DNA of 64,000 nt from Oceanispirochaeta sp. (GTDB lineage Bacteria; Spirochaetota; Spirochaetia; DSM-2461): NCBI GenBank assembly GCA_963663385.2, contig CAXXXD010000004.1, positions 1,088,001 to 1,152,000 on the forward strand, read 5' to 3'. This document shows positions 38,022 to 52,030 of the stretch, piece by piece. The translations under genes and the position numbers were made by a program. The notes below the pieces were generated by a model, which saw nothing but the letters and a program-made list of their open reading frames with translations, made no database searches and had not been told where the DNA came from. The stretch's first letter is position 1; each line of letters starts with the position of its first letter.

Positions 38022-39383
38022 ATGCGCCTTTTATCACCCCGGCAGAATGACACGCTCAAACCTCTGGTTGTTATAGCCCTGCCGGTTATGATGACCAATA
38101 TGGTGGAAACCCTCTATAATCTGACGGACACCTGGTTTCTGGGACGTCTGGGGCCTGAAGAGCTGGCGGCTCCCTCCATCTCTTTTAATCTGGTAATGCT
38201 GATTATCCTTCTGGGGAATGGTCTGGCTTCGGCGGGGACGACCCTGATCGCCCGTTCTGTGGGGCAGAATAACAGGGAGAAGGTTGATTTTTACCTGGGG
38301 CAGATGACCATGTTTCTTCTGTTGAGTTCCCTTATCATGGGAGCAGTCGGTTATTTCTTTTCCGGAACCTTTCTCTCCCTGATTCATACACCGGAAAATA
38401 TGATCGGAATGACCCGGAACTACATCGAAATCATAAGTCTGGGCGTTCCCTTTATGTATGGTTTTTTTATCCTTCAGGCTGCCATGCAGGGGACGGGGAA
38501 TACCATGGTGGCTCTGCGGATACAGCTGACGGCCACAGCCGTGAATATTCCTCTGGATGCACTTCTTATATTCGGTTCTGGTCCGCTGCCGGGAATGGGG
38601 GTGGAAGGCGCAGCCATTGCAACGGTTGTATCCCGGGGGATTGCCTGTTTTTCCGGAATCATTATACTGGTCCGCGGGAACAGGGGAATGAAGCTGAAAA
38701 AGAAGAACCTTCCTTTTCGAAGGGATGCTGTTTCTCTTTTTCTCAGGCTGGGACTGCCCGCCGCATTGAGTCATGCCGGTTCCACACTGGGATTTACCGT
38801 AATGCATGGTATCGTCAATACATTCGGTACGGCGGTAATTGCGGCATTCGGGATTGTAAACAGGGTGCACTCAATCTTCTATATGCCTATTCAGGGCCTG
38901 GCTAAGGGCGTTACAACCGTAGTGGGCCAGTCTCTGGGAGCAAAAGAAGAGAGTCAGGCGGGAAAGGCTATTTCCACAGGAACCCTGCTGGCTTTTCTTC
39001 TAATAACCCCCGGAATGATTCTGACCTTTTTCTTCGGCGGGAATTTTATCCGTTTCTTTCTGGATTCCCCCGAAGCCATAGCAGAAGGAACAAGGCTTTT
39101 CCGGATAATATCGCCATCGGTGGTCATTTTTGCTATCTTTATGATATACGTAGGGGCCTTTCAGGGAGCCGGGGATACCCGTTCCATTATGATCATGCAC
39201 CTCGGGCGGCTCTGGGGTATCCGCCTGCCTGTAGCCTGGCTTCTGGCGGTCCGCCTGGATCAGGGGGCTCCGGGTGTCTGGTATGCCATGTTTATTTCCA
39301 ATATGCTGATTACCCTGATCGGGTATCTGCGTTATAAAAGCAATAACTGGGTGAATGCCCTGAAAGATGTAAAGGACGAATAG
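38022..39383 (+). CDS. MATE family efflux transporter
   Basis: YNLTDTWFLGRLG, QGTGNT, NIPLDALLIFG...GVEGAAIAT, FQGAGDT; about 12 TM segments. Confidence 0.92.
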   Translation: MRLLSPRQNDTLKPLVVIALPVMMTNMVETLYNLTDTWFLGRLGPEELAAPSISFNLVMLIILLGNGLASAGTTLIARSVGQNNREKVDFYLGQMTMFLLLSSLIMGAVGYFFSGTFLSLIHTPENMIGMTRNYIEIISLGVPFMYGFFILQAAMQGTGNTMVALRIQLTATAVNIPLDALLIFGSGPLPGMGVEGAAIATVVSRGIACFSGIIILVRGNRGMKLKKKNLPFRRDAVSLFLRLGLPAALSHAGSTLGFTVMHGIVNTFGTAVIAAFGIVNRVHSIFYMPIQGLAKGVTTVVGQSLGAKEESQAGKAISTGTLLAFLLITPGMILTFFFGGNFIRFFLDSPEAIAEGTRLFRIISPSVVIFAIFMIYVGAFQGAGDTRSIMIMHLGRLWGIRLPVAWLLAVRLDQGAPGVWYAMFISNMLITLIGYLRYKSNNWVNALKDVKDE

Positions 39384-39394
39384 GAACTGTATTT

Positions 39395-42300
39395 GTGAGA
39401 ATCCTCCCGGATGAAATATCAGAGAATAGAATATTCCAGTCTCATCTTCCCGAAGCCAGGGCTTTTACGCGTGAGAACCGGGTTTATAATCTGAAACAGA
39501 CCGATACGGAACTGAAGGGTTTTGTACTGGGGGGGGAGCCCATGCCTCATGAGGTCCTGCTCCGTTACAGACCGGAACCGGAGGGAAAGGGACAGTATCT
39601 GTGGCGTTGTGAGTGCGGCAGTGAAGACCCCTGTGTGCATCTGGCTTCTCTTATCCTCCGTTCCGCGGATCTGGGACTGGATAAGGAGCACTGGCTTTCC
39701 CTGCTGGAAAACCGGATCAGCAGCGCCGTGCCCGCAGCTTTTCCTGTTGACGACGGGGAAGGGCTCTCTCTTTTCTCAGGCGACCTTTTTTCCGGGGGCT
39801 CACAGGATCGGAAACAGAATACAGTTTCGGCGGCTGTTCGGGAAGCTCCTGCGGATCATAGTGATATTCCGCTCTTTATGAACCTGGGAGAGGACGATTT
39901 CCTTCTTCAGCAGGAAGCGCCCCGTTACGATCTGGTCTTTACCCTGACTGAATCTCCGGGAGAAGGAATCCTTGTCCGTCCGGCGCTGATACGGCTTCGT
40001 GAAGGCGTACGCAGCGGGGGAATCGCACGGTACAAAGCCTCCCGTCCGGTTTCACCCCCTGCGGGAGCAGCTCTTAAACTGCTTAATCTTCTGACAGAAG
40101 AGGAGAACGACTCTCTTCCTCTGGAGAAGTGCCTCCCCCTGGTATTGGAGCAGGGAGAGCTGTTTACCACGGCTAAAGACGGAGTCTCTGTTTTTCATGC
40201 GGATTCTGTGGAGGTGGTATTCCGTTTTCAGGAACTGCTGGGAGATGACCGCCCCCTGTATGCCCCCGAGTTCCGTTTTACGGGAGGGGCTCCGGAGGAT
40301 GAGACCCGGGACGGGCTTAAGGATACTTTTGTTCTGCGGGATTACAGGAAGCTGATTATACGCAGCGGCCGGGTGTTCTGTCTGGATCAGCGGGAAGGGC
40401 GTCTTATTGTATTGAAAGAGGATTCGAATACCTCTTTTTTTCTGAACCTTCTTCTTTCAAAAAGTCAGGGATTTCTGGCGGCGGATATCAGGGGAGTGCT
40501 CCGTCTGGCAAAGGACCTGAACAATCACTGCCTTATTCTGAATGAAAACTACCCGCCCGTTTCAATCCGGAGGGCCGAACCGGCCTGTGTGTTGAAGCTG
40601 CGGAGCCGCCAGGATAAAACAGAGCTCTTTTTCTTTTTCCGTTATGGCAGTACGGATATCGCCTACCAGAATCAGACATTCTGGCTTCCTCCGGAAGCCC
40701 CCGACAGCGCCGGGGTTCTTCTGATACAGAAACGGAACAGGGAGAGGGAATCCGAACTGGTTCAGGAGGTAGTGGAGCGTTTTACCGATTACCTTTCATT
40801 TGAAAAGGGGTACTATGCCCGTCTGGTTAATGAGAACAGGGAAGGGGACCTTCGTCTGGATCTCTCTCTGGAGGAATTCCTGGCCTGTTACGCGAAATCC
40901 CTCCATGAGGCGGGAGTGGAGCTTCAGCTTGAGGACCGGAAAATCAGCGGCGCCGGGGCTGTCCGTTTCAATGTCAAGGGAAAAACCGACTGGCTGGAAG
41001 TGGATGCCATGGTGGAAGACCCCGATACGGAGGAACTGCGGTCTCTCTTTTTTGATGATCATTTTCAGACGCTCGGTCTGATCAGTACGGGAAACTCCTA
41101 TATTAAACTGAAGGATGCCCAGTTACGGCAGCTTGAATACCTGCGCCGTCAGGGGATGAGCGATGACGGTCAGCTGGAAACCTCTTCTGCCAATTTTTCA
41201 CTGGTGGACCATATTTACGAACAGGTTATGGACCGGGAGGACTCTCCGGTAGAGGATGTTGTCTCCCGGGCCCGGGATCTCAGGCTTACATTTGAACAGG
41301 ATCTGCTCCCTCAGCCTGAAACGGTACAGGCGACCCTCAGGCCCTATCAGCTGACAGGGTATAACTGGCTGAGGAAACTGCATGATATGAACTGTATGGG
41401 GTGTCTGGCAGACGATATGGGGCTGGGGAAGACCCTTCAGACCCTGAGCCTGCTTCAGTCTCTCAAAGAGAAAGGGGGACTGAAAACCTCTCTGCTGGTG
41501 GCGCCTGTTGTAACCCTGGCGAACTGGGAGAGTGAAATCGCCAGGTTTACACCGGATCTGGGATTCTACCGCCATGCCGGATCAAACCGCCATGATTCTG
41601 CCGAACTTTTCAGGCAGTACGACCTGGTAATCGTCAGTTATCATACACTCCGGAATGATGTGGATATCTTTCTGGATATGGCTTTTGACTATATTATTCT
41701 GGATGAAGCACACTATATAAAAAATGCTTCCTCTGTGATTTTCAAGGCCATCAGGTCTCTTAAGAGCAGCCATCGTCTCTCCCTGACGGGGACCCCTATC
41801 GAAAACAATACCCTGGAACTCTGGTCGCAGTTCAACTTTCTCAGTCCCGGCCTGCTGGGATCTCAGAAGGAGTTTATAGAACGTTTTGCCCAGCCCATTG
41901 AAAAGAAAAATGATAAAGAAGCCCTCAGTATCCTGCGGGATACGGTTTCTCCCTTTATCCTGAGGCGGAAAAAAGAGGATGTGCTGGATGATCTGCCTCC
42001 CAAGGAAATTATTGTCCACTACAGTGAGATGACCGGTTCGCAGGCTGAACTCTACCATAAGTACCGGGATTACTACCGGGCCCGGGTTAAGGGGCTGCTG
42101 GATGAAAAGGGGCTGGCCGGTTCCTCCATGCAGATCTTTCAGTTTCTGCTGAAGCTGCGGCAGCTGGCCATCTATCCTCCCATGACCGGTCCGGAAGGGG
42201 CCGATGCCGGTTCCTGCAAGATGGATGCCCTTAAAGCTCTGCTGGAGGAAGTTCTGGAAGAGGATCATAAAATCCTGATATTCTCCCAGTTTCTGGGTTC

Positions 42301-42718
42301 TCTCACCGCCATGGGGGATTACTGCCGGGATCAGCATTGGGATTACTCCTTTATTACCGGGCAGACCGCAGACCGGGCGGAGGAAATCCGCCGCTTTCAG
42401 GAAGAAGAGGATATAAGGATATTCCTGTTAAGCCTTAAAGCCGGAGGAGTCGGTATCAATCTTACAGCGGCAGACTATGTTGTCCTTTTTGATCCATGGT
42501 GGAATCCTGCGGCAGAACGGCAGGCCATCGACCGGGCCCACCGGATGGGGCAGACTCGAAAAGTCATCTCCTACAAGATGATTGTCCGCGATACCATTGA
42601 AGAGAAAATACTGATGATGCAGGAAGAGAAAACGGCCCTTATGGAAGGGATCATCTCTGATGAACAGGGATTCTTCGGTACTTTGAAAGAGGATGAAATT
42701 GTCAATCTTTTTGAGTAG
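39395..42718 (+). CDS. SWIM zinc finger / SNF2-family helicase
   Basis: CECG...CVH (SWIM), LRPYQ, LADDMGLGKT, LDEAH, LTGTPIEN, SLKAGGVGINLT, QAIDRAHRMGQ. Confidence 0.93.
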   Translation: MRILPDEISENRIFQSHLPEARAFTRENRVYNLKQTDTELKGFVLGGEPMPHEVLLRYRPEPEGKGQYLWRCECGSEDPCVHLASLILRSADLGLDKEHWLSLLENRISSAVPAAFPVDDGEGLSLFSGDLFSGGSQDRKQNTVSAAVREAPADHSDIPLFMNLGEDDFLLQQEAPRYDLVFTLTESPGEGILVRPALIRLREGVRSGGIARYKASRPVSPPAGAALKLLNLLTEEENDSLPLEKCLPLVLEQGELFTTAKDGVSVFHADSVEVVFRFQELLGDDRPLYAPEFRFTGGAPEDETRDGLKDTFVLRDYRKLIIRSGRVFCLDQREGRLIVLKEDSNTSFFLNLLLSKSQGFLAADIRGVLRLAKDLNNHCLILNENYPPVSIRRAEPACVLKLRSRQDKTELFFFFRYGSTDIAYQNQTFWLPPEAPDSAGVLLIQKRNRERESELVQEVVERFTDYLSFEKGYYARLVNENREGDLRLDLSLEEFLACYAKSLHEAGVELQLEDRKISGAGAVRFNVKGKTDWLEVDAMVEDPDTEELRSLFFDDHFQTLGLISTGNSYIKLKDAQLRQLEYLRRQGMSDDGQLETSSANFSLVDHIYEQVMDREDSPVEDVVSRARDLRLTFEQDLLPQPETVQATLRPYQLTGYNWLRKLHDMNCMGCLADDMGLGKTLQTLSLLQSLKEKGGLKTSLLVAPVVTLANWESEIARFTPDLGFYRHAGSNRHDSAELFRQYDLVIVSYHTLRNDVDIFLDMAFDYIILDEAHYIKNASSVIFKAIRSLKSSHRLSLTGTPIENNTLELWSQFNFLSPGLLGSQKEFIERFAQPIEKKNDKEALSILRDTVSPFILRRKKEDVLDDLPPKEIIVHYSEMTGSQAELYHKYRDYYRARVKGLLDEKGLAGSSMQIFQFLLKLRQLAIYPPMTGPEGADAGSCKMDALKALLEEVLEEDHKILIFSQFLGSLTAMGDYCRDQHWDYSFITGQTADRAEEIRRFQEEEDIRIFLLSLKAGGVGINLTAADYVVLFDPWWNPAAERQAIDRAHRMGQTRKVISYKMIVRDTIEEKILMMQEEKTALMEGIISDEQGFFGTLKEDEIVNLFE

Positions 42719-43111
42719 ATGATTTTACTCAGCTTTTAAAAAGGGGAACCGGGAGGGATTCGTCGTTGGGACTGCAGCAAAGGCAGCCGGATCAGACTTC
42801 TCTATTAATTATACATAGGAGAAATTCAAAGTAAAAAGGAATGGTGGGGGCATGAATACTGCGCAGCTACTGCCAGAACTCGTCATCCGCTTTATATCCG
42901 ATCGGAAAGGAAGAACTCATTTTTCTGCTTGATCCGGAATCAGTATTAAGGGCTTTTTGAATCGGATCTATCTCCTGAAGCCGGGCAGTCAGGCATAAAC
43001 TCTTCAATAAAACTTTCAAAAATTGCTCTGATGTCTTTATTTGTCTTTTATAGTCCATTATTGTCCATTTGCTATTGATGGTTTATTCGAAAAATGGTAA
43101 GTTCATCCTGT

Positions 43112-43468
43112 ATGAAGAGGTTCTGTCTGTTTTTTACAGTGCTATTATTCTCTCTCTCGCTGATTGGTGAAGATCTGTTCTTCTCCGGTCCGGTTTTTTT
43201 TGCCGGATCAACGGACGTTTTCCTTTCCACAGACAACTCTGAGCTTCCCTCCGGAAATACCGATGCGGTTGAGCTTCTGCTGGAAGAGGAGGAGGAAGAG
43301 AGCGAGGAAGAGGCGGAACTCCACCGCGCTGCGGGTCCGCAGGCTTTTCCCCCTGTAGAATATCAACCACTTCAAAGATACGGCTGCAGCCGACTCCGGT
43401 ACCTGCAGACTCTGTTTACTCCCTTTGAACAGAACCCCATTCTTTCTTTAAGAGGACCCCCCTGCTGA
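43112..43468 (+). CDS. Signal-peptide-bearing leader ORF with poly-Glu tract and C-terminal RGPP motif (candidate translation-arrest peptide)
   Basis: MKRFCLFFTVLLFSLSLIG signal-like N-terminus, EEEEEESEEE tract, ends SLRGPPC*. The ORF track start at 43094 is also possible. Confidence 0.6.
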   Translation: MKRFCLFFTVLLFSLSLIGEDLFFSGPVFFAGSTDVFLSTDNSELPSGNTDAVELLLEEEEEESEEEAELHRAAGPQAFPPVEYQPLQRYGCSRLRYLQTLFTPFEQNPILSLRGPPC

Positions 43469-43509
43469 TTCCTTTCCTGACAGACTGATAAAAATAACGA
43501 AAAGGAATC
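43467..43509 (+). promoter_or_regulatory. Hairpin sequestering the SD of the downstream CBS gene
   Basis: GATTCCTTT (43467-43475, overlapping the uORF stop) is the exact reverse complement of AAAGGAATC (43501-43509), which contains the SD for ATG 43514. Confidence 0.6.
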
Positions 43510-43513
43510 TTAA

Positions 43514-43972
43514 ATGAAAAATATATCTCTCGCCGAATTGCTGGATCAACGGGATATCCCTGTGTTCAATGAACAGGCCAGCCTGGAAGACCTTATTATG
43601 TATGACAGGGAACAGAGCTGCTGTTCTCACTACTATTTCACAAATAGGGAAGGGGTTCTGACCGGTATTCTCAGTAAACAGAAAATACTGGAGTTTTTAA
43701 GCTCCCTGTTCTTTCTGGTGGACAAAAACCAGGAAGACCGGCTGGCTGAGACCCTTGCCACAGTAAAAGTCCGTCCTCTTATGGATACTCATGTCCCTTC
43801 CCTGCGTTTAAATCAGAGCCTGCCCCAGGGAGTGGAAACCCTGCTCCTTTCCGGTTACAGCGCCCTGCCGGTTCTGGATGACAAACGGAGGCTGATAGGG
43901 GAGGTCTCCCGGGATTCCCTGCTGGGTATCATTCCCCTGAGACAGCGGGAGGTTCGTTATGCAGTTTCGTAA
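43514..43972 (+). CDS. CBS-domain pair protein
   Basis: EGVLTGILS, VKVRPLM, LPVLDDKRRLIGEVSR. Confidence 0.75.
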   Translation: MKNISLAELLDQRDIPVFNEQASLEDLIMYDREQSCCSHYYFTNREGVLTGILSKQKILEFLSSLFFLVDKNQEDRLAETLATVKVRPLMDTHVPSLRLNQSLPQGVETLLLSGYSALPVLDDKRRLIGEVSRDSLLGIIPLRQREVRYAVS

Positions 43973-44855
43973 ATATCTGACCGAGGACTCTGTGTTCCTG
44001 GATCAGGATTTTTCCTCGGTAACGGAAGCACTGGATTTCCTCTCGCGGGAGTTTGCCCGCCGAACCGGTCTGGGGGAATCATTTGTGCGGAATCTGCTTC
44101 AGGAACGTGAGGATCTCAGTCCTACCTGGATTGGTTCAGGGACTATGCTGCCCCATAATCATCACCCTGAGGTTAAGGACCTGGTGATGATATTTATCCG
44201 CTGCCGGAAACCTTTTGCCCTGGATGACGGTAATGAGGTCCGTTATATATTTTCCATTCTTACGCCCGGTTCACAGGAGCAGCTCTATCTGGGCATTCTG
44301 CAGGGCATCGGTCAGCTTGTTCAGAACAGGTCCGACAGGATTGACAGCTGCCGTATCCCGGCCGACCTCTTTGACCTGCTGCAGGGGGAATCCTTTCTGA
44401 TGGGTGCTCCCATTACGGCATCGGATCTGGCCAAGGACTGGCCCCGCATCTACCGGGATGATCCGCTTTCCAAAGCGCTGGACCTTATGAAGAAGCATGA
44501 TGTATACCTTCTGCCGGTTTTTACCGGCGAAGGCGGAGTGCTGTGCGGCGTACTGGATCTGGTGGATCTTCTGAAAGCCGGATTCCCTGACTATGTTTTC
44601 AGTCTCTATGACTTTTCCATGATTAATGATTTTCAGCCCCTGAAATACTTCTGGAGAAATGAAGGAGCCCTGAAGGCCGGAGCTTATGCACGGGATCACA
44701 GACCCTATCTGATCCGGGAAGATGCTTCCTACCCGGAGGTCTTCTTCCTGATGATTAAAGGAGGCCGGAGGCATCTGCTGGTCATCAACAGCCTGGATGA
44801 GCTGGTCGGAATCATCCATCCCAAAGAAATAATTCATACGATGCTGAGGCCGTAA
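43959..44855 (+). CDS. PTS EIIA (Ntr/Fru-type) domain fused to a CBS pair
   Basis: EREDLSPTWIGSGTMLPH matches the EIIA_2 phospho-His motif. The C-terminus has LSKALDLM...LPV...GVLD and LVGII CBS repeats. Confidence 0.78.
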   Translation: MQFRKYLTEDSVFLDQDFSSVTEALDFLSREFARRTGLGESFVRNLLQEREDLSPTWIGSGTMLPHNHHPEVKDLVMIFIRCRKPFALDDGNEVRYIFSILTPGSQEQLYLGILQGIGQLVQNRSDRIDSCRIPADLFDLLQGESFLMGAPITASDLAKDWPRIYRDDPLSKALDLMKKHDVYLLPVFTGEGGVLCGVLDLVDLLKAGFPDYVFSLYDFSMINDFQPLKYFWRNEGALKAGAYARDHRPYLIREDASYPEVFFLMIKGGRRHLLVINSLDELVGIIHPKEIIHTMLRP

Positions 44856-46130
44856 ATGACAATACATATGATAATTGCCCTTTTGATTTTTATAGTGGTG
44901 TATGCCCTTTTTATTCTGGAAAAAGTGAATAAGGCTGTAGCGGTGCTTTTCGGTGCTTCCCTCTATCTGGCTTTTCACTTTATCCCCTTTCATGAAGCGG
45001 TGGAACATATAGATGTGAATGTCATCTTCCTTCTGATAGGAATGATGCTGATTGTGCGGATAAGCGAGCAGAGCGGTATTTTCGAATACGCCGCCATTCG
45101 CAGCGCCAAGCTTGTAAATGCGGATCCCATTCGGTTTCTTGCGGTGCTGTTTCTGATGACAGCTTTTTTCTCTGCCGTACTGGATAATGTAACAACAGTA
45201 CTGCTGATATCACCTGTGACTCTTCTGCTGACGACTCAGATGGAAATCCCCGCCCTGCCATTCGTTATTACCGAGATTATAGCTTCCAATGTGGGAGGGA
45301 CCGCGACCCTGATAGGTGATCCTCCCAATATAATGATCGGTTCGGCGGCAAAACTCAGTTTTATGGATTTTCTTCTCAATCTGGCTCCTGTGGTACTCGG
45401 TATTTCCTTTGTTATTCTCGGTTTTATGATTCTGATTTTCCGGAAGGATCTGCAGATAAGCGAACTGAACAGGCACCGGATCCTTGCGATGGATGAGAAA
45501 AAGATGATTCATAACCCTGCTCTGATGAAAAAATCCCTTATTGTGCTCTCATCGGTGGTTATAGGGTTTCTGGTTCACGGCTTTATAGAACTGGAACCCA
45601 GTATTATAGCCCTGGCGGGGGCCTGTGTACTGATTGTCTGGTCCGATGAAGATCTGGAGGACCTTCTCAAGAAGATCGAATGGGACACAATCCTGTTTTT
45701 TGTGGGCCTTTTCATTATGGTGGGTGTACTGGAATATGCCGGTATTATTGGAACCCTGGCAGACAGGATGATCGCCCTGACAGGAGGGAATCTTCAAAAG
45801 ACGAGCCTTGTTCTGCTCTTCTCTTCGGGGATCTTCTCGGGGATTCTGGACAATATTCCTCTTGTAGCGACTTTCATCCCCATCGTGAAGATTATCGGTC
45901 ATTCCGCCGGCAGGGGAGAGCTTGGTCCTGTCTGGTGGAGCCTGGCTCTGGGCTCCTGTCTGGGCGGAAACGGAACCCTGGTAGGAGCTTCGGCCAATGT
46001 GATCATGTTCGGTTTTGCCAAAAAGAATAATGTGGATCTCTCCTTTGGAGGGTATCTGAAATTCGGCATACCTATGACTATCCTGTCTCTGGGGCTCTCC
46101 TGGCTTTATATTCATTACAGGTATTACTGA
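44856..46130 (+). CDS. ArsB/NhaD (ion transporter superfamily) permease
   Basis: LLIGMM, SAVLDNVTTVL, SNVGGTATLIGDPPNIMI, SGILDNIP, LGGNGTLVGASAN. Confidence 0.9.
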   Translation: MTIHMIIALLIFIVVYALFILEKVNKAVAVLFGASLYLAFHFIPFHEAVEHIDVNVIFLLIGMMLIVRISEQSGIFEYAAIRSAKLVNADPIRFLAVLFLMTAFFSAVLDNVTTVLLISPVTLLLTTQMEIPALPFVITEIIASNVGGTATLIGDPPNIMIGSAAKLSFMDFLLNLAPVVLGISFVILGFMILIFRKDLQISELNRHRILAMDEKKMIHNPALMKKSLIVLSSVVIGFLVHGFIELEPSIIALAGACVLIVWSDEDLEDLLKKIEWDTILFFVGLFIMVGVLEYAGIIGTLADRMIALTGGNLQKTSLVLLFSSGIFSGILDNIPLVATFIPIVKIIGHSAGRGELGPVWWSLALGSCLGGNGTLVGASANVIMFGFAKKNNVDLSFGGYLKFGIPMTILSLGLSWLYIHYRYY

Positions 46131-46275: not shown

Positions 46276-48111
46276 ATGATGAAACAGCGTTCTGTTCTGT
46301 TCAAAATAGCTGTCCCCAGTGTATCTTTCATTGTTGTTCTTATTGCGGCAGTCTGTTTTATAGCCTACCAGTCCACATTTGACAGTTTGTTTGTTGTCTA
46401 TAAAACCCAGCTGGACAGTACCAGCCGGGATATAAACAGGCAGCTGGATGATTTCTATACAGCCCAGCTGGATACGGCTGCTTCCATAGCCGGCAACACA
46501 CTTCTGGGAAAGGTGCTGGAGCAGAATGATCAGGATGCTCTTGATGAGTATCTGGGTTCTGTAACGGAGAGTCTTTCCGTATTTGAAACCATCCTGATCC
46601 TGGATACCTCCACAGGGCGTATTGCGGGGGATAATCAAAAGGGTTCTTTCCGTAATCTCAAGCTGGAGGAGGCGTTTCCCGAACTGACAGACACAGAGTA
46701 TAAAAGGGGAGAACAGTCTTTCAGCGCTCCCTTTGTCTCCACATCAACAGGTTGTCCGGTTGTGCTTGTCAAGCAGAGTCTGGGAGTAACAGGCGGTTAT
46801 GAGCTTTTCACAACATTCAATCTGGGAAGATTTACGGCAGGGACACTGGTTCATGCGGTTATCGGCATTACAGGATATCCCTTTGTCTGCAATCTGGAGG
46901 GGATTACAGTGGCACACCCCAATCCTGCCAATATTATGACCCTGAATCTAATGGATTTCGAGTTCGGCCGGACCATGATGAGTTCTCCCGACGGCACCCT
47001 TATCGAGTATCTGTGGGAAGGAAAGGACAAAATCCTCTCTATCGCCCGGAATGACAGTCTGGGACTGGTTACGGGAACCACAATGTATGTGGATGATATC
47101 AAACAGGCCGCATCGGCGGTAAGCCGAAATCTTGGCCTGACCGGTATCGGAGCTGTTCTGCTGCTGGCGGGCCTATTGATTTCTCTGTTTATGAAAGTCG
47201 TTACCCGGCCTTTAAAGCATGCTGTGGAAATATCCGAGTCTGTGGCGAAAGGGGATCTGACCGTGGAGTTTACGGTGACACAGAATGATGAGATCGGGCG
47301 GCTCCAGCAGTCTCAGAAAGATATGGTAAGAGCTTTGAATTCCATTATTGCAGAAGTCACAAACGGATCGGAGACAGTGGCTGCCGGCAGCCAGCAGATG
47401 AGCGCGTCAGCCGTTCAGGTTTCTCATGGAGCGAATACCCAGGCTGCCGGAGTGGAAGAGGTGGCCGCCTCAATAGAGCAGATTACAACAAATATACAGC
47501 AGACCGCTGAAAATGCAGGGCAGACAGAGCTTATCGCCAGGAATGTGGCCAGCAGCGCTGGTGAGAGCTGTAAGGCTGTGAATGAGGCCCTGGAAGCCGT
47601 CAGCCGCATTAACCAGGAAATTGCGGTCATTGGAGAGATTTCCCGGTCTACCAATATGCTGGCCCTGAATGCCGCCATCGAAGCAGCCCGGGCAGGTGAA
47701 TCAGGTAAGGGTTTTGCGGTTGTGGCAGCCGAAGTCAGGAAGCTGGCGGAAAAAAGCTCCCGTTCGGCAGATCTGATAATGGATCTGTCCCGGCATACGG
47801 TGGATTCCGCCCGGAGAGCCTCGGAAATGCTGAATTCTCTGATGCCGGAAATCAACAGGACCGCTTCTCTGGTACAGGACATCAGTCTGGCCAGCAGGGA
47901 ACAGCATATGGGTGTTGTTCAGATCAATCAGGCGGTTCAGCAGCAGGACCATATTATCCAGCAGAATGCCAGCGTATCCGAGGAGCTGACAGCAACGGCT
48001 GAAAATCTGGCCGGACAGGCCTCGGGTCTGCTGGAAGCTGTCCGGTACTTTCAGGTGGAGGAAAACCGGTATCTTCGGGAACAGCCGAAATCGGCTTTGA
48101 TTGACGGCTGA
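46276..48111 (+). CDS. Methyl-accepting chemotaxis protein (Cache, HAMP, MA)
   Basis: Two TM segments, VAHP Cache motif, HAMP (DEIGRL) and [34 protein letters not shown]. Confidence 0.95.
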
Positions 48112-48179: not shown

Positions 48180-48851
48180 ATGAGTATGAAGGCATCCATT
48201 CAGGGGAATCCGTCTTTCAGCCATGTGCATATCGATCTGGATCCAGGTGAGAGCATTACCGCAGAAAGCGGCGCCATGCAGTCCATGGCAGCCCGGCTGG
48301 ATATGAAAGCCGTATCAAACGGCGGGTTTTTTTCCGCTCTGGGAAAGAAAATCTTCGGAGGCGAATCCTATTTTGTCAATCAGTTCACCAATAGGGGCAG
48401 CGCCCCCATGCGCGTTACCATCTCCCAGGATGTTCCCGGAGAAATCCGGGCGCTGAAACTGGACGGTACTCGGGATATCTGCCTTCAGAAAGGCTCCTAC
48501 CTGGCCCATTCGGGGGATATAAAACTCAAAGCATCCTGGGCCGGTTTTATCTCCTGGTTCTCAGGGGAGGGCCTTGTCAAACTGAAGGCATCAGGGAACG
48601 GTACCCTCTGGTTCGGCGCCTACGGCGGAATTATTGAAAGAAGAGTGGAGGGGAGTCTTAAAGTGGACGACGGCCACCTGGTTGCCTATGATCCCTCTCT
48701 GAAACTGAAAGTCGCCCTGGCGGGGGGATTGTTCTCCAGTTTCTTCGGAGGCGAGGGATTCGTTACGAAAGTCAGGGGCAGCGGTACGGTTTATATACAG
48801 ACCCGCAGTCTGAGGGGCCTGGCATCCTGGCTGAATCCCAAATTCCGGTAG
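48180..48851 (+). CDS. TIGR00266/AIM24 family protein, copy 1
   Basis: AESGAM, GGESYFVN, FSGEGL, VDDGHLVA, GGEGFV, QTR. Confidence 0.88.
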   Translation: MSMKASIQGNPSFSHVHIDLDPGESITAESGAMQSMAARLDMKAVSNGGFFSALGKKIFGGESYFVNQFTNRGSAPMRVTISQDVPGEIRALKLDGTRDICLQKGSYLAHSGDIKLKASWAGFISWFSGEGLVKLKASGNGTLWFGAYGGIIERRVEGSLKVDDGHLVAYDPSLKLKVALAGGLFSSFFGGEGFVTKVRGSGTVYIQTRSLRGLASWLNPKFR

Positions 48852-48866
48852 AGAAAGGAGAGAATT

Positions 48867-49565
48867 ATGCAGATTGAAGTTATAAACCGCCCGGCCAATA
48901 CGGCAGCCAAAGTTCTTCTGGAACCTTCCGAAACCTTTACGGCCGAGGGGGGCGCCATGATTGCCATGTCCGGCGATATGAATCTGGTTACCAGCGTCAA
49001 CAAAAACGAAAAAAGCAAAGGCCGTAAGCTGCTGAAAGGCCTGGCCCGGACGCTGGGGGGAGAAGGGCTCTTTTTGAACCATTTTACAGCCGGCGTGAAC
49101 GGCGGGGATGTCTTTCTGGCCCCTTCCCTTCCCGGGGACCTTGCGGTTATCGAGCTGGACGGCAGCCGGGCCGTCAAAGTGCAGAACGGTTCATTCATGG
49201 CCTATGAAAACGGGGTGAATATGAATATCAGCTGGGAGGGATTCAAGAATGTTTTTTCCGGCGAAAACATGATCTGGCTGGAGATGTCCGGCAGGGGAAA
49301 GGTCCTGATAAATGCGTTCGGGATGATCTACCCGGTTAAAGTGGATGGTGAGTATATTGTGGATACCGGCAATATCGCCGCTTTTGATGAGACCCTGGAG
49401 TTTAAAATCTCCAAAGCGGGAAAGAGTCTTTTCTCCTCTATTATGGGAGGAGAAGGGCTGGTCTGCCGCTTTAAGGGTCGGGGAACCGTCTGGTGTCAGA
49501 CCCATGCAGACAGGGCTTTCGGTACAAAACTGACCCCTCTGCTCACCCCGAAACAGGATAACTAA
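48867..49565 (+). CDS. TIGR00266/AIM24 family protein, copy 2
   Basis: AEGGAM, GGEGLFLN, APSLPGD, VDTGNIAAF, GGEGLVCRF. Confidence 0.88.
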   Translation: MQIEVINRPANTAAKVLLEPSETFTAEGGAMIAMSGDMNLVTSVNKNEKSKGRKLLKGLARTLGGEGLFLNHFTAGVNGGDVFLAPSLPGDLAVIELDGSRAVKVQNGSFMAYENGVNMNISWEGFKNVFSGENMIWLEMSGRGKVLINAFGMIYPVKVDGEYIVDTGNIAAFDETLEFKISKAGKSLFSSIMGGEGLVCRFKGRGTVWCQTHADRAFGTKLTPLLTPKQDN

Positions 49566-49575
49566 GGAAGGAAAA

Positions 49576-50262
49576 ATGCAGGAAAATAGATCTGACTATA
49601 AATATGATATCGCCTCCGCACCGGATTTCGGGATGGTGAATATTACCGTGCCACAGGGAAAAACCCTCAAGGCCGAAGCTTCGGCCATGGCCTATATGGA
49701 TTCCACCCTTAAAATGAAAACAAAAATGAAGGGCGGCCTGAAAAGGGCCCTGACGGGGGAGAAGCTTTTTATTAATGAGTTTACAGCAGATGCCGGGGAT
49801 GCAGATATAGGTATAGCCCCGGGATGCCCCGGAGATATCGGCCACCTCTACCTGGAGAACGACACGGTTTTTCTGCAGAGTTCCTCCTACCTGGCTTCCT
49901 CTCCGGATCTGGAAACGGGAATCGATTTTCAGGGATTCAAGGGGTTCTTTTCGGGAGAGAAGATTTTTATGATCCGCTGCAGCGGGACGGGAGACCTCTG
50001 GTTCAATACATTCGGCGGGCTGATAGCCATAGATGTCCGGGATAACTATGTGGTGGACACCGGTTACATTGTGGGCTTTACGGAGGGCCTCAGCTACGAT
50101 GTTCGTCCCGTGGCCGGGATGAAGAGCCTGTTTTTTTCCGGAGAGGGGCTGGTCTGCCGCTTTTCGGGAGAAGGAACCGTCTGGATTCAGACCAGGCAGT
50201 CCCCCGCCTTTGTGAGCTGGGCGGACGCCTTCCGGCGGGTTGAGAAAAAGAAGAAGGATTAG
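49576..50262 (+). CDS. TIGR00266/AIM24 family protein, copy 3
   Basis: AEASAM, TGEKLFIN, APGCPGD, VDTGYIVGF, SGEGLVCRF, QTR. Confidence 0.88.
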   Translation: MQENRSDYKYDIASAPDFGMVNITVPQGKTLKAEASAMAYMDSTLKMKTKMKGGLKRALTGEKLFINEFTADAGDADIGIAPGCPGDIGHLYLENDTVFLQSSSYLASSPDLETGIDFQGFKGFFSGEKIFMIRCSGTGDLWFNTFGGLIAIDVRDNYVVDTGYIVGFTEGLSYDVRPVAGMKSLFFSGEGLVCRFSGEGTVWIQTRQSPAFVSWADAFRRVEKKKKD

Positions 50263-50354: not shown

Positions 50355-50561
50355 ATGAAAGTTATGGATAAAACACAGTTACATCCCCAGTTTTTAATGA
50401 ATGAACAGGGTAAAAAAACTTCTGTCCTTCTTCCCGTTGAGGAGTTTTATGAACTTCTTGAAGATCTGGAAGATCTGGCTGTTTGTGCTGAGCGAAGAAA
50501 TGAGCCGACAATTCCCATGGAAGAGGTTATTAAAGAGTTAGGTCTTGAAGACCGTGTATAA
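50355..50561 (+). CDS. Putative antitoxin of a RelE-type TA pair
   Basis: Small acidic protein (GKKTSVLLPVEEFYELLEDLED...EEVIKELGL) overlapping the toxin gene. Confidence 0.8.
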   Translation: MKVMDKTQLHPQFLMNEQGKKTSVLLPVEEFYELLEDLEDLAVCAERRNEPTIPMEEVIKELGLEDRV

Positions 50562-50808
50562 AATTGAATTCAAAAAATCAGCCTTGAAAGAGTTGAAAAA
50601 GCTTCCCCGGAAGGAACAAATTTCAATTTTATCAGCGATTAAAAAACTGGCGGAGAATCCCATACCTGTGGGATACAAGAAAATGGTCGGGTCAGAATCC
50701 ACGTACAGAATCAGGGTTGGTAATTATAGAATCATTTACAATATCTACAAGAAAGAACTCTTTATAGAAATTATACGGGTCGGCCATAGAAAAGATATAT
50801 ATCGCTGA
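50545..50808 (+). CDS. relE: RelE/ParE family toxin
   Basis: YKIEFKKSALKELKKL, YRIRVGNYRIIY, VGHRKDIYR. Start is TTG 50545 or GTG 50554. Confidence 0.92.
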   Translation: MKTVYKIEFKKSALKELKKLPRKEQISILSAIKKLAENPIPVGYKKMVGSESTYRIRVGNYRIIYNIYKKELFIEIIRVGHRKDIYR

Positions 50809-50976: not shown

Positions 50977-51243
50977 CTATGCTAATATAACCTGCAGTAG
51001 AATAACCATTCCCATCACTAAAGCCATCATTATGAAAATAGCCCAAAATTGATTATTGAAACACTTTCTCTGAAAATAAGGATAAAGTGTCCAAATACAA
51101 AGAAAAAATAATGGTATTCCAAGTAAAGTAGTTGGAAGTAAGTTGTATCTTTCCCTCATGAAGCTAAAAAAAGGTTCTAAGTGAGAAATTAACTTATCAA
51201 TGTAGAATCTCTTTGTTAAAAATCTAGGTAAAAAATCACTCAT
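50977..51243 (-). CDS. Small membrane protein, candidate immunity partner of the RHS C-terminal ORF
   Basis: ATG at 51243 overlaps the stop of the RHS ORF; two TM segments; AT-rich. Confidence 0.55.
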   Translation of the reverse strand: MSDFLPRFLTKRFYIDKLISHLEPFFSFMRERYNLLPTTLLGIPLFFLCIWTLYPYFQRKCFNNQFWAIFIMMALVMGMVILLQVILA

Positions 51244-52030
51244 TATCTGTTTCTTCTTGCTCTTGATCTTCTTCTGGCTCTGGTTCGTTAACCTGGCTCT
51301 TGCCAACAAGTGATCCAACTATACTTGCTACTTTTAAAATAAAACTTGATCTAACAGTTGAAGAAGTTCCAGACTTTGTTGATACAAATTGACCTCTACC
51401 TGGATTTATCTGCTTGTGAAATCTCATTGATCCTGTATTAAAAGAGGGAAGAGTTTTTTTCGCTATAACATCGGCAGCAAATGAACCCATACTGGCAGTC
51501 GTATCTGCCGATAACTCGCCTTCGATGATATCAGCACCTGCATTCAATAAAAGACTTGCACCATCAGCCATTAATGCTGCTGTTGCTGCTGTTCCCGCAC
51601 CAGGAAGATTCCCCGTTATGGCTAAGCCTACAGTTGAGTAATTTGCAACATCTCCTGCTATTGAAGAGGCACTGGCAGTATCTCTCAAAAACTCTACAGA
51701 AGCTCCTTTCCCAGCTTGAGTAAGATCTTCTTTAGCCTTCTCGTTACCACTTGCAGCTTTAATAATCGTAGCAGATGCACTTCTTGAATGATTTGCGTAT
51801 AGACCAACTAAATCTTTTATTGAAGGCATTGTCCACATCCCAGTGGGATCGATGAATTTTTGAGGATTGTTTGAAACATAGATAAACCAGTTTTGGCCAT
51901 CCCGAGCCGGGTCTTCAGATATGAATCTCCCGGTTCCGGCATCATACCACCTGGCATTGTAGTAGTATAACCCGGTGTCTTCATCGAGATCCTTTCCGGT
52001 ATACTTCAAATCAGGATAGTTTCGTATCAC
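51236..52030 (-). CDS. Orphan RHS repeat-associated core plus variable C-terminal domain
   Basis: YTGKDLDEDTGLYYYNARWYD...GRFISEDP...NNP.KFIDPTG core with the DPxG cleavage motif, about 200-aa C-terminus, and no upstream YD repeats. Confidence 0.85.
   Translation of the reverse strand: MIRNYPDLKYTGKDLDEDTGLYYYNARWYDAGTGRFISEDPARDGQNWFIYVSNNPQKFIDPTGMWTMPSIKDLVGLYANHSRSASATIIKAASGNEKAKEDLTQAGKGASVEFLRDTASASSIAGDVANYSTVGLAITGNLPGAGTAATAALMADGASLLLNAGADIIEGELSADTTASMGSFAADVIAKKTLPSFNTGSMRFHKQINPGRGQFVSTKSGTSSTVRSSFILKVASIVGSLVGKSQVNEPEPEEDQEQEETDNE

What the first reader, a model, noticed from the sequence alone, without database searches (positions are those of the whole stretch)
43112..46130. 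Candidate RGPP arrest-peptide attenuator controlling a CBS / EIIA-CBS / ArsB-NhaD ion-transport operon
Seen: a ~118-aa uORF with a signal-peptide-like N-terminus, a poly-Glu tract and the ending RGPPC*. A 9-bp stem forms between a 5' arm (43467-43475) overlapping the uORF stop and a 3' arm (43501-43509) that is the SD of the next gene. Established: SecM (RAGP), ApdA/ApdP (RAPP) and DUF2946/CruR-type leaders combine an export signal with an R-A/G-P-P-like stall motif, and in SecM-type systems the stalled ribosome melts an SD-masking hairpin. Inference: a ribosome stalled on the Pro codons (43457-43462) would cover the 5' arm and switch on the operon. The target here is not sec/yidC or a TonB receptor but an ion transporter with nucleotide-sensing and PTS modules. 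That suggests an export-, ion-motive-force- or cation-sensing circuit that I do not know to be described.
Basis: partly seen in the sequence, partly recalled or inferred. Interest (0 to 1): 0.85.

Follow-up and report, generated by a model that had tools for sequence, protein, structure and literature searches.

The report
Stalling leader peptide gates ion-transport operon
A small exported peptide ending in a known ribosome-stalling motif sits in front of an ion-transport operon and most likely switches it on when the peptide's export loses pulling force; the type of switch is known, but its conserved acidic patch raises the untested possibility that it reads membrane voltage.

Summary
The 118-aa leader holds the only R[AG]PP among 4,445 called proteins of this genome. 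Relatives give 21 such leaders: 17 RAPP, 1 RGPP, 3 KAPP. All 15 genes of this CBS subfamily have one. The anti-SD stem covaries: cognate -10.4 versus swapped -7.1 kcal/mol, 0 of 50,000 permutations. The class is published (Fujiwara 2025, PMC12992588): its source data list 'CBS domain-containing protein' as 11-fold enriched and contain one member of this family, untested. This scan also noted RAPP/RGPP leaders before CBS genes twice on other DNA. Best reading: a SecM/VemP-like force-gated attenuator (0.75). Stalling and the sensed signal are not shown. Against: a terminating ribosome opens this stem equally well in the model, a KAPP lineage exists, and one acidic leader precedes an unrelated ABC exporter. 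Boldest reading: a natural membrane-potential sensor (0.2). The permease is IT-superfamily, below the ArsB and NhaD cut-offs.

The parts
43075..43103 (+). sigma70-like promoter (-35 TTGATG 43075-80, 17-nt spacer, -10 TAAGTT 43098-103) ending 8 nt before the leader ATG; no SD, so probably a leaderless start
   Evidence: TTGA begins 34-38 nt before the start codon in 17 of 17 and 20 of 21 leaders against 150 of 3,831 control genes; transcription start not measured; missed by the consensus scan
43112..43468 (+). 118-aa leader ORF (candidate arrest peptide)
   Evidence: no Pfam or NCBIfam family
43112..43168 (+). signal-peptide-like N-terminus (basic start, hydrophobic core; cleavage site not predicted)
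   Evidence: KD 2.86 here, 2.28-3.55 in 21 of 21 leaders
43283..43318 (+). acidic tract, residues 58-69, 47-58 residues from the P-site Pro
   Evidence: net -9 in 10 residues; 0 of 372 secreted-like control proteins reach -9; net -4 or lower, starting 40-53 residues from the P site, in 18 of 21 leaders
43451..43462 (+). RGPP arrest motif
   Evidence: only R[AG]PP in 4,445 called proteins; Arg coded by AGA, AGG, CGC, CGG and CGA in relatives
43467..43475 (+). anti-SD 5' arm, overlapping the leader stop
43501..43509 (+). 3' arm = SD of the CBS gene
43514..43972 (+). stand-alone two-CBS protein, 152 aa
   Evidence: PF00571; subfamily alignment A1
43959..44855 (+). EIIA(Ntr)-like + CBS fusion, 298 aa; His66 invariant and aligned to the PtsN Pro-His
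44856..46130 (+). IT-superfamily permease, 424 aa (CitMHS 277 bits, ArsB 64 bits); substrate unknown

Best explanation
A SecM/VemP-like translational ON-switch. A probably leaderless mRNA starts at the leader ATG (inferred from promoter spacing). The ribosome pauses with Pro116 in the P site and Pro117 in the A site (inferred from the CruR toeprint in PMC12992588). The nascent chain is then about 116 residues long, long enough for the signal peptide to engage Sec and for the acidic tract to sit at the translocon. When export is energised the chain is pulled, the ribosome finishes, the anti-SD stem refolds and the operon is translated weakly. When pulling fails, the ribosome stays on the 5' arm, the SD stays open and the CBS, EIIA-CBS and permease genes (overlapping or abutting, so probably coupled) are made. 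The most likely input is the energy state of export (ion-motive force or salt), used here to tune ion transport instead of Sec. Shown: conservation, covariation, motif avoidance, geometry in a folding model. Inferred: arrest, release by force, direction of control, the signal.
For: 21 leaders from 18 genomes plus one metagenome contig keep size (99-126 aa), hydrophobic start and [RK][AG]PP near the C-terminus while the rest diverges to 20-35% identity. 15 of 15 genes of the CBS subfamily have the leader, including 3 of 3 not used in the profile; 0 of 5 weaker CBS hits do. 23 of 23 hits of a profile search of 1.84 billion proteins carry RAPP, RGPP or KAPP near the C-terminus (about half are the query sequences or close kin, and the motif is in the profile). 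Stem: cognate -11.4 vs swapped -7.7 in 16 loci, 0 of 100,000 permutations; 21 loci -10.4 vs -7.1 and a hand-thinned 14 -10.4 vs -7.2, 0 of 50,000 each; 174 control pairs average -5.5 with no cognate advantage. Masking the footprint lowers opening energy by 2 kcal/mol or more in 17 of 21; mean drop 5.4 in 17 loci vs 0.13 in controls. In 9 of 17 loci the stem starts 12-15 nt after the Arg codon although the stop lies 15-45 nt after it. RGPP gave the strongest arrest in several contexts, and 7 of 7 tested Streptomyces RAPP/RGPP leaders arrested (PMC12992588). VemP is precedent for export force reporting Na+ (PMC11470409 passages).
Against: No stalling or expression data. In the window a terminating ribosome opens the stem at least as well as a stalled one (1.5 vs 3.1 kcal/mol; family means 4.9 vs 3.8). 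Three loci or proteins carry KAPP (L003, L139, P0025) although Arg was irreplaceable in ApcA, ApdA and ApdP. The motif alone is insufficient for arrest. No stem effect in 4 of 21 loci (L038, L094, L156, L161). 16 of 32 assessable EIIA-CBS/permease operons have no leader in the fetched upstream DNA (3 more end at contig edges), so the operon works without it. Kin are not independent, so the permutation values overstate.
Confidence: 0.75

Rival explanations
1. Voltage handle (a sharper form of the best explanation): the acidic tract is placed so that the membrane potential electrophoreses it through SecY and releases the arrest; depolarisation holds the ribosome and induces ion transport.
For: The most acidic 10-residue window starts 48.4 +/- 2.8 residues from the P site in 17 leaders; 2,000 shuffles never gave an SD under 12. 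The translocon insertion site lies about 45 residues from the PTC (PMC12002286 passages). Membrane potential pulls acidic stretches and releases SecM arrest (review PMC6028853 passages on Ismail 2015; the 47-49 residue peak is recalled, that paper was not held). Hand count, not scripted: the first 12 CBS-class rows shown from the Fujiwara table all have a net -3 to -6 patch within 37-51 residues of the P site while its distance from the N-terminus varies. Eight or more leaders put basic residues just behind the patch; Arg85 of VemP is proposed to feel the potential.
Against: The patch is weak or displaced in 3 of 21 leaders (L139, L155, L161). The same patch precedes a Gld-like ABC operon, not an ion transporter, in L094. 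In the 17 leaders its distance from the N-terminus is as constant (SD 3.0) as from the P site. Most of the 29 proton-antiporter rows seen have no patch by eye. The review notes that basic and neutral stretches were also released.
Confidence: 0.2
2. Cytoplasmic ion or trans-factor sensing: the acidic tract is repelled from the ribosome surface (screened by K+ or Mg2+) or is bound by the CBS or EIIA proteins, and the signal peptide only tethers the complex.
For: Acidic nascent segments release arrest without any membrane (bioRxiv 10.1101/303784 passages). The leader travels with the stand-alone CBS gene in front of different transporters (SulP in L064 and L068).
Against: The tract lies 47-58 residues out, beyond the tunnel (tunnel length recalled); the export signal is kept in 21 of 21; leaders occur without the CBS gene (L038, L161, L094).
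Confidence: 0.12
3. Plain translational coupling: any ribosome that terminates on the leader melts the stem; the motif is irrelevant.
For: The stop overlaps the 5' arm here, and termination opens the stem in the model; the KAPP lineage.
Against: Does not explain a motif otherwise absent from the proteome, synonymous Arg codons from both boxes, a conserved export signal, or arms that end before distant stops (L047, L048, L068).
Confidence: 0.08
4. The leader product is a working periplasmic acidic protein and the motif and stem are incidental.
For: It has an export signal and a conserved acidic patch.
Against: Invariant columns are only Met1, one Glu and the two prolines; no family match; the stem covaries.
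Confidence: 0.03

Closest known systems
RAPP/RGPP-containing small secretory uORFs upstream of diverse genes (Fujiwara et al. 2025, PMC12992588), class 'CBS domain-containing protein' of Fig. 4B source data
   Same: Under 300 aa, export signal, C-terminal RAPP/RGPP, co-oriented downstream gene; one family member (leader of L041) is row 792 of the table.
   Different: The class is only listed: no mention of CBS, acidic patch or antiporter in the main text, none tested; no stem, promoter or operon analysis seen.
SecM, ApdA/ApdP and uDF_RQH_Enterobacterales (PMC10987492 passages)
   Same: Export signal, RAPP-like motif, stall-dependent opening of an SD-masking stem.
   Different: The target here is not secA, secDF or yidC; the genome's one secD over cut-off lies on another contig.
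VemP of Vibrio (PMC11470409 passages)
   Same: Export force used as a proxy for cation supply; charged residues proposed to feel the membrane potential.
   Different: VemP has no proline motif at the arrest site and controls SecDF2, not ion transporters.
CruR / DUF2946 (PMC12992588 sections 13-15)
   Same: RAPP leader that controls a non-Sec transport gene.
   Different: No DUF2946 match and no conserved Cys or His; an acidic patch instead.

Membership tests
RAPP/RGPP arrest-peptide uORFs (Fujiwara 2025) | small ORF (<300 aa) of unknown function with RAPP or RGPP near the C-terminus | tested here: met
   118 aa, motif at 114-117; criteria from section 24
RAPP/RGPP arrest-peptide uORFs (Fujiwara 2025) | localisation signal | tested here: met
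   hydropathy and basic N-terminus only, 21 of 21; DeepTMHMM and SignalP not available
RAPP/RGPP arrest-peptide uORFs (Fujiwara 2025) | co-oriented downstream gene, linkage conserved | tested here: met
   45-nt gap; 15 of 15 CBS-subfamily genes
RAPP/RGPP arrest-peptide uORFs (Fujiwara 2025) | Arg-dependent elongation arrest at the Pro-Pro codons | not testable with these tools
   needs in vitro translation or toeprinting; the KAPP lineage is a caution
SecM-type monitoring substrates | SD-masking stem within reach of the stalled ribosome | tested here: met
   (folding model and covariation)
SecM-type monitoring substrates | downstream gene is secA, secDF or yidC | tested here: not met
   CBS, EIIA-CBS and IT permease: works like, but is not filed as, a Sec monitoring substrate
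SecM-type monitoring substrates | arrest released by translocation force | not testable with these tools
   inferred only
CruR / DUF2946 | PF11162 match and conserved metal-binding Cys or His | tested here: not met
ArsB or NhaD (permease) | NCBIfam score over the curated cut-off | tested here: not met
   ArsB 108 of 457, NhaD 65 of 577, MamN 195 of 500 bits; Pfam CitMHS over cut-off
EIIA(Ntr)-like PTS domain | phosphorylatable His | tested here: met
   His66 aligns to the PtsN Pro-His and is invariant in 8 of 8; below the PtsN equivalog cut-off; role of that His recalled

The most novel reading that the evidence does not exclude
These leaders are natural membrane-potential sensors: a signal peptide threads the chain into SecY, a fixed acidic patch about 47-58 residues from an RAPP/RGPP arrest sits in the electric field, and loss of potential holds the ribosome on an anti-SD arm to induce ion transporters. 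It would be the genetic use of an effect so far shown with engineered SecM constructs, and may extend to the published but untested CBS class of 266 RAPP leaders.
Probability: 0.2. Interest if true: 0.85.

Novelty: new variant of a known kind. Interest (0 to 1): 0.5.

Why it matters
PMC12992588 closes by asking whether arrest regulates the non-Sec targets and where the pulling force comes from. This family makes that testable: a complete cis-element set with a covarying stem, natural variants (RGPP, RAPP, KAPP; with and without acidic patch; with and without leader) and one concrete candidate for the force. If the patch reads the membrane potential, bacteria would have a translation-level voltage sensor wired to ion homeostasis, also usable as a genetic reporter. 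If not, it is a well-supported further member of a known class.

Tried and rejected
Single-sequence fold z-score: uninformative. Consensus promoter/terminator scan missed the leader promoter and found no terminator at the stem. Rfam: 0 matches at E<=1. Back-translated scans with single CBS proteins found nothing; one search gave two loci already held and one unrelated. Long-range DNA pattern for other leaders in 38 family genomes: hit counts similar to the reversed control; 30 hits were fetched as loci and 6 more as regions, the rest were not; none was a new leader. MAFFT could not align the stems for pair counting, so duplex swapping was used instead. No RNA holder listed. Contigs of two runs span the region without differences and may be this DNA's source; a third, at depth 2, shows no change in the motif or stem but does not cover most of the leader. 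P0008 reads through the motif in another frame and also differs at its start; I took it as a probable indel artefact, unverified. Ismail 2015 could not be read. Structure and complex prediction were not run: no binding claim is made. The 28 SecD-class rows show no comparable acidic patch by eye, but they come largely from high-GC taxa (recalled from locus tags and composition), so I rejected them as a clean control. Not-in-print claims rest on searches and in-paper searches.
Full report
Observation. The leader, motif, arms and three genes are at the stated coordinates. Taken alone the stem is unremarkable (z -0.12). The motif is not: with my rough gene caller the genome has 4,445 proteins and one R[AG]PP, this one, against 9 AAPP, 5 AGPP, 20 PPGR and 11 APPR. 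Relatives carry Spirochaetia or Spirochaetales labels. The permease belongs to the IT superfamily (Pfam CitMHS 277 bits; best PDB hit ArsB, E 2.5e-11) but is under all 10 NCBIfam cut-offs it touches, best MamN; its substrate, cation or anion, is open. The EIIA domain keeps the PtsN histidine. By a recalled CBS motif, the EIIA-CBS protein keeps one canonical Asp and the stand-alone CBS protein does not clearly keep any, so 'nucleotide sensing' is untested.

Conservation. The EIIA-CBS protein matched full length at 27 places in 61 genomes, 7 more in a 401-genome phylum sample and 1 metagenome contig. Of these 35, 16 have a leader at the head of the operon, 16 have none in the DNA fetched, and 3 end at a contig edge. 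The stand-alone CBS subfamily (E<=1.5e-25) has 15 genes in a 401-genome class sample; all 15 follow a leader, including L063, L064 and L068, which were not in the profile; 0 of 5 weaker CBS hits do. One more leader came from the leader profile (L094). In all 21 leaders: 17 RAPP, 1 RGPP, 3 KAPP counting P0025, that is, among the 21 loci 18 RAPP, 1 RGPP and 2 KAPP; 99-126 aa; hydrophobic start in all. Downstream genes: EIIA-CBS plus IT permease, often with extra EIIA, HTH-EIIA and a Na/H-exchanger-CBS gene (16 loci); SulP (2); a truncated or orphan cassette (2); a Gld-like ABC operon (1). Arg codons come from both codon boxes. A profile search of 1.84 billion proteins gave 23 hits, all with the motif near the C-terminus; the 10 most distant have no informative name.

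Stem. In most loci the bases just after the motif pair with that locus's own SD region, with different letters in each. Own pairs average -11.4 against -7.7 kcal/mol for swapped pairs in 16 loci (0 of 100,000 permutations) and -10.4 against -7.1 in 21 loci, with the same result in 14 loci thinned by hand. 174 control gene pairs average -5.5 own and -6.0 swapped. Masking to 21 nt after the Arg codon (footprint size recalled) lowers the opening energy by 2 kcal/mol or more in 17 of 21. Here the arm starts 16 nt after the Arg codon, at the edge of the footprint: 7.5 falls to 3.8 or 3.1, while a terminating ribosome gives 1.5. The window alone therefore cannot separate stalling from termination coupling. 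The family leans to stalling: in 9 of 17 loci the stem starts at +12 to +15 whether the stop is at +15 or +45.

Two additions. First, TTGA lies 34-38 nt before the start codon, with a -10-like or A/T-rich hexamer 17 nt on and 6-8 nt to the start, in 17 of 17 and 20 of 21, against 150 of 3,831 control genes; 16 of 17 have no SD. The leader is probably translated from a leaderless mRNA, which independently fixes the start codon. Second, the most acidic 10 residues start 48.4 +/- 2.8 residues from the P-site Pro in 17 leaders (shuffle SD never under 12); mean net charge -5.8 against -3.5 in 372 secreted-like controls. Four later loci weakened this: one fits, three do not.

Mechanism. Arrest with the prolines in the P and A sites, release by export force, and opening of the SD while stalled follow SecM and uDF_RQH and CruR. 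What supplies the force is inferred. The patch sits just past the 45-residue translocon mark, where membrane potential pulls acidic residues and frees SecM arrest, hence the voltage reading (0.2). VemP shows that export force alone can report Na+ supply. Repulsion from the ribosome is a membrane-free alternative. Against ion specificity: L094, and antiporter rows without a patch.

Comparison with the literature. Fujiwara 2025 (PMC12992588; seen: abstract, one part of the results, sections 13, 14, 15 and 24, keyword passages, searches of nine supplementary files, and parts of file 8) defines this class and lists CBS proteins and cation:proton antiporters among the enriched targets; row 792 equals the L041 leader. 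File 8 is cut and holds no RGPP enrichment table, file 10 was not searched and four files, including one PDF, were too large, so the window's own RGPP leader, or remarks on the acidic patch, could be there unseen. PMC10987492, PMC6028853, PMC7886326, PMC12002286, PMC11470409, the LudP preprint and bioRxiv 303784 were seen as keyword passages only; Ismail 2015 not at all. Searches found no paper on an RAPP leader of a CBS or ion-transport operon or on a voltage-sensing leader. Two earlier notes of this scan describe RAPP/RGPP leaders before CBS genes in other genomes; none matched this sequence.

Verdict. Real, conserved and very probably a working arrest-peptide attenuator (about 0.85 for arrest-linked control, 0.75 with export force as the release). 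It is a member of a published class by every criterion testable here, with an undescribed anatomy (leaderless start, positioned acidic patch, EIIA/CBS ion-transport operon): a new variant of a known kind. Interest 0.5; 0.85 if the voltage reading holds.

Noticed in passing
window 48180-50262 (+): Three tandem AIM24-family genes.
   Followed up: no
window 50355-50808 (+): RelB-like antitoxin and ParE-family toxin pair.
   Followed up: no
window 51236-52030 (-): ORF whose N-terminus looks like an RHS repeat-associated core (recalled resemblance; no Pfam hit at E<=0.01).
   Followed up: partly
window 38022-42718 (+) and 46276-48111 (+): MATE transporter and SNF2 helicase upstream, methyl-accepting chemotaxis protein downstream; the neighbours differ in relatives.
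   Followed up: partly
L094 1501-1860 (L133 722-1081): Paralogous acidic RAPP leader with the same promoter spacing in front of a GldA/F/G-like ABC operon with DUF4340.
   Followed up: partly
L003 636-983, L139 up to 2044, protein P0025: A KAPP lineage keeps signal, promoter and stem: a natural test of whether Lys can replace Arg.
   Followed up: partly
L046 2067-2900; L063/L136; L155; L004/L045: Cassette turnover: a truncated EIIA-CBS after the CBS gene (L046), an orphan leader-CBS pair (L063), a 32-aa ORF between leader and EIIA-CBS (L155), and a close orthologous operon lacking both leader and CBS gene (L004).
   Followed up: partly
L031 6213-7394 (-): A further Na/H-exchanger gene lies directly upstream of the leader in this genome.
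   Followed up: no
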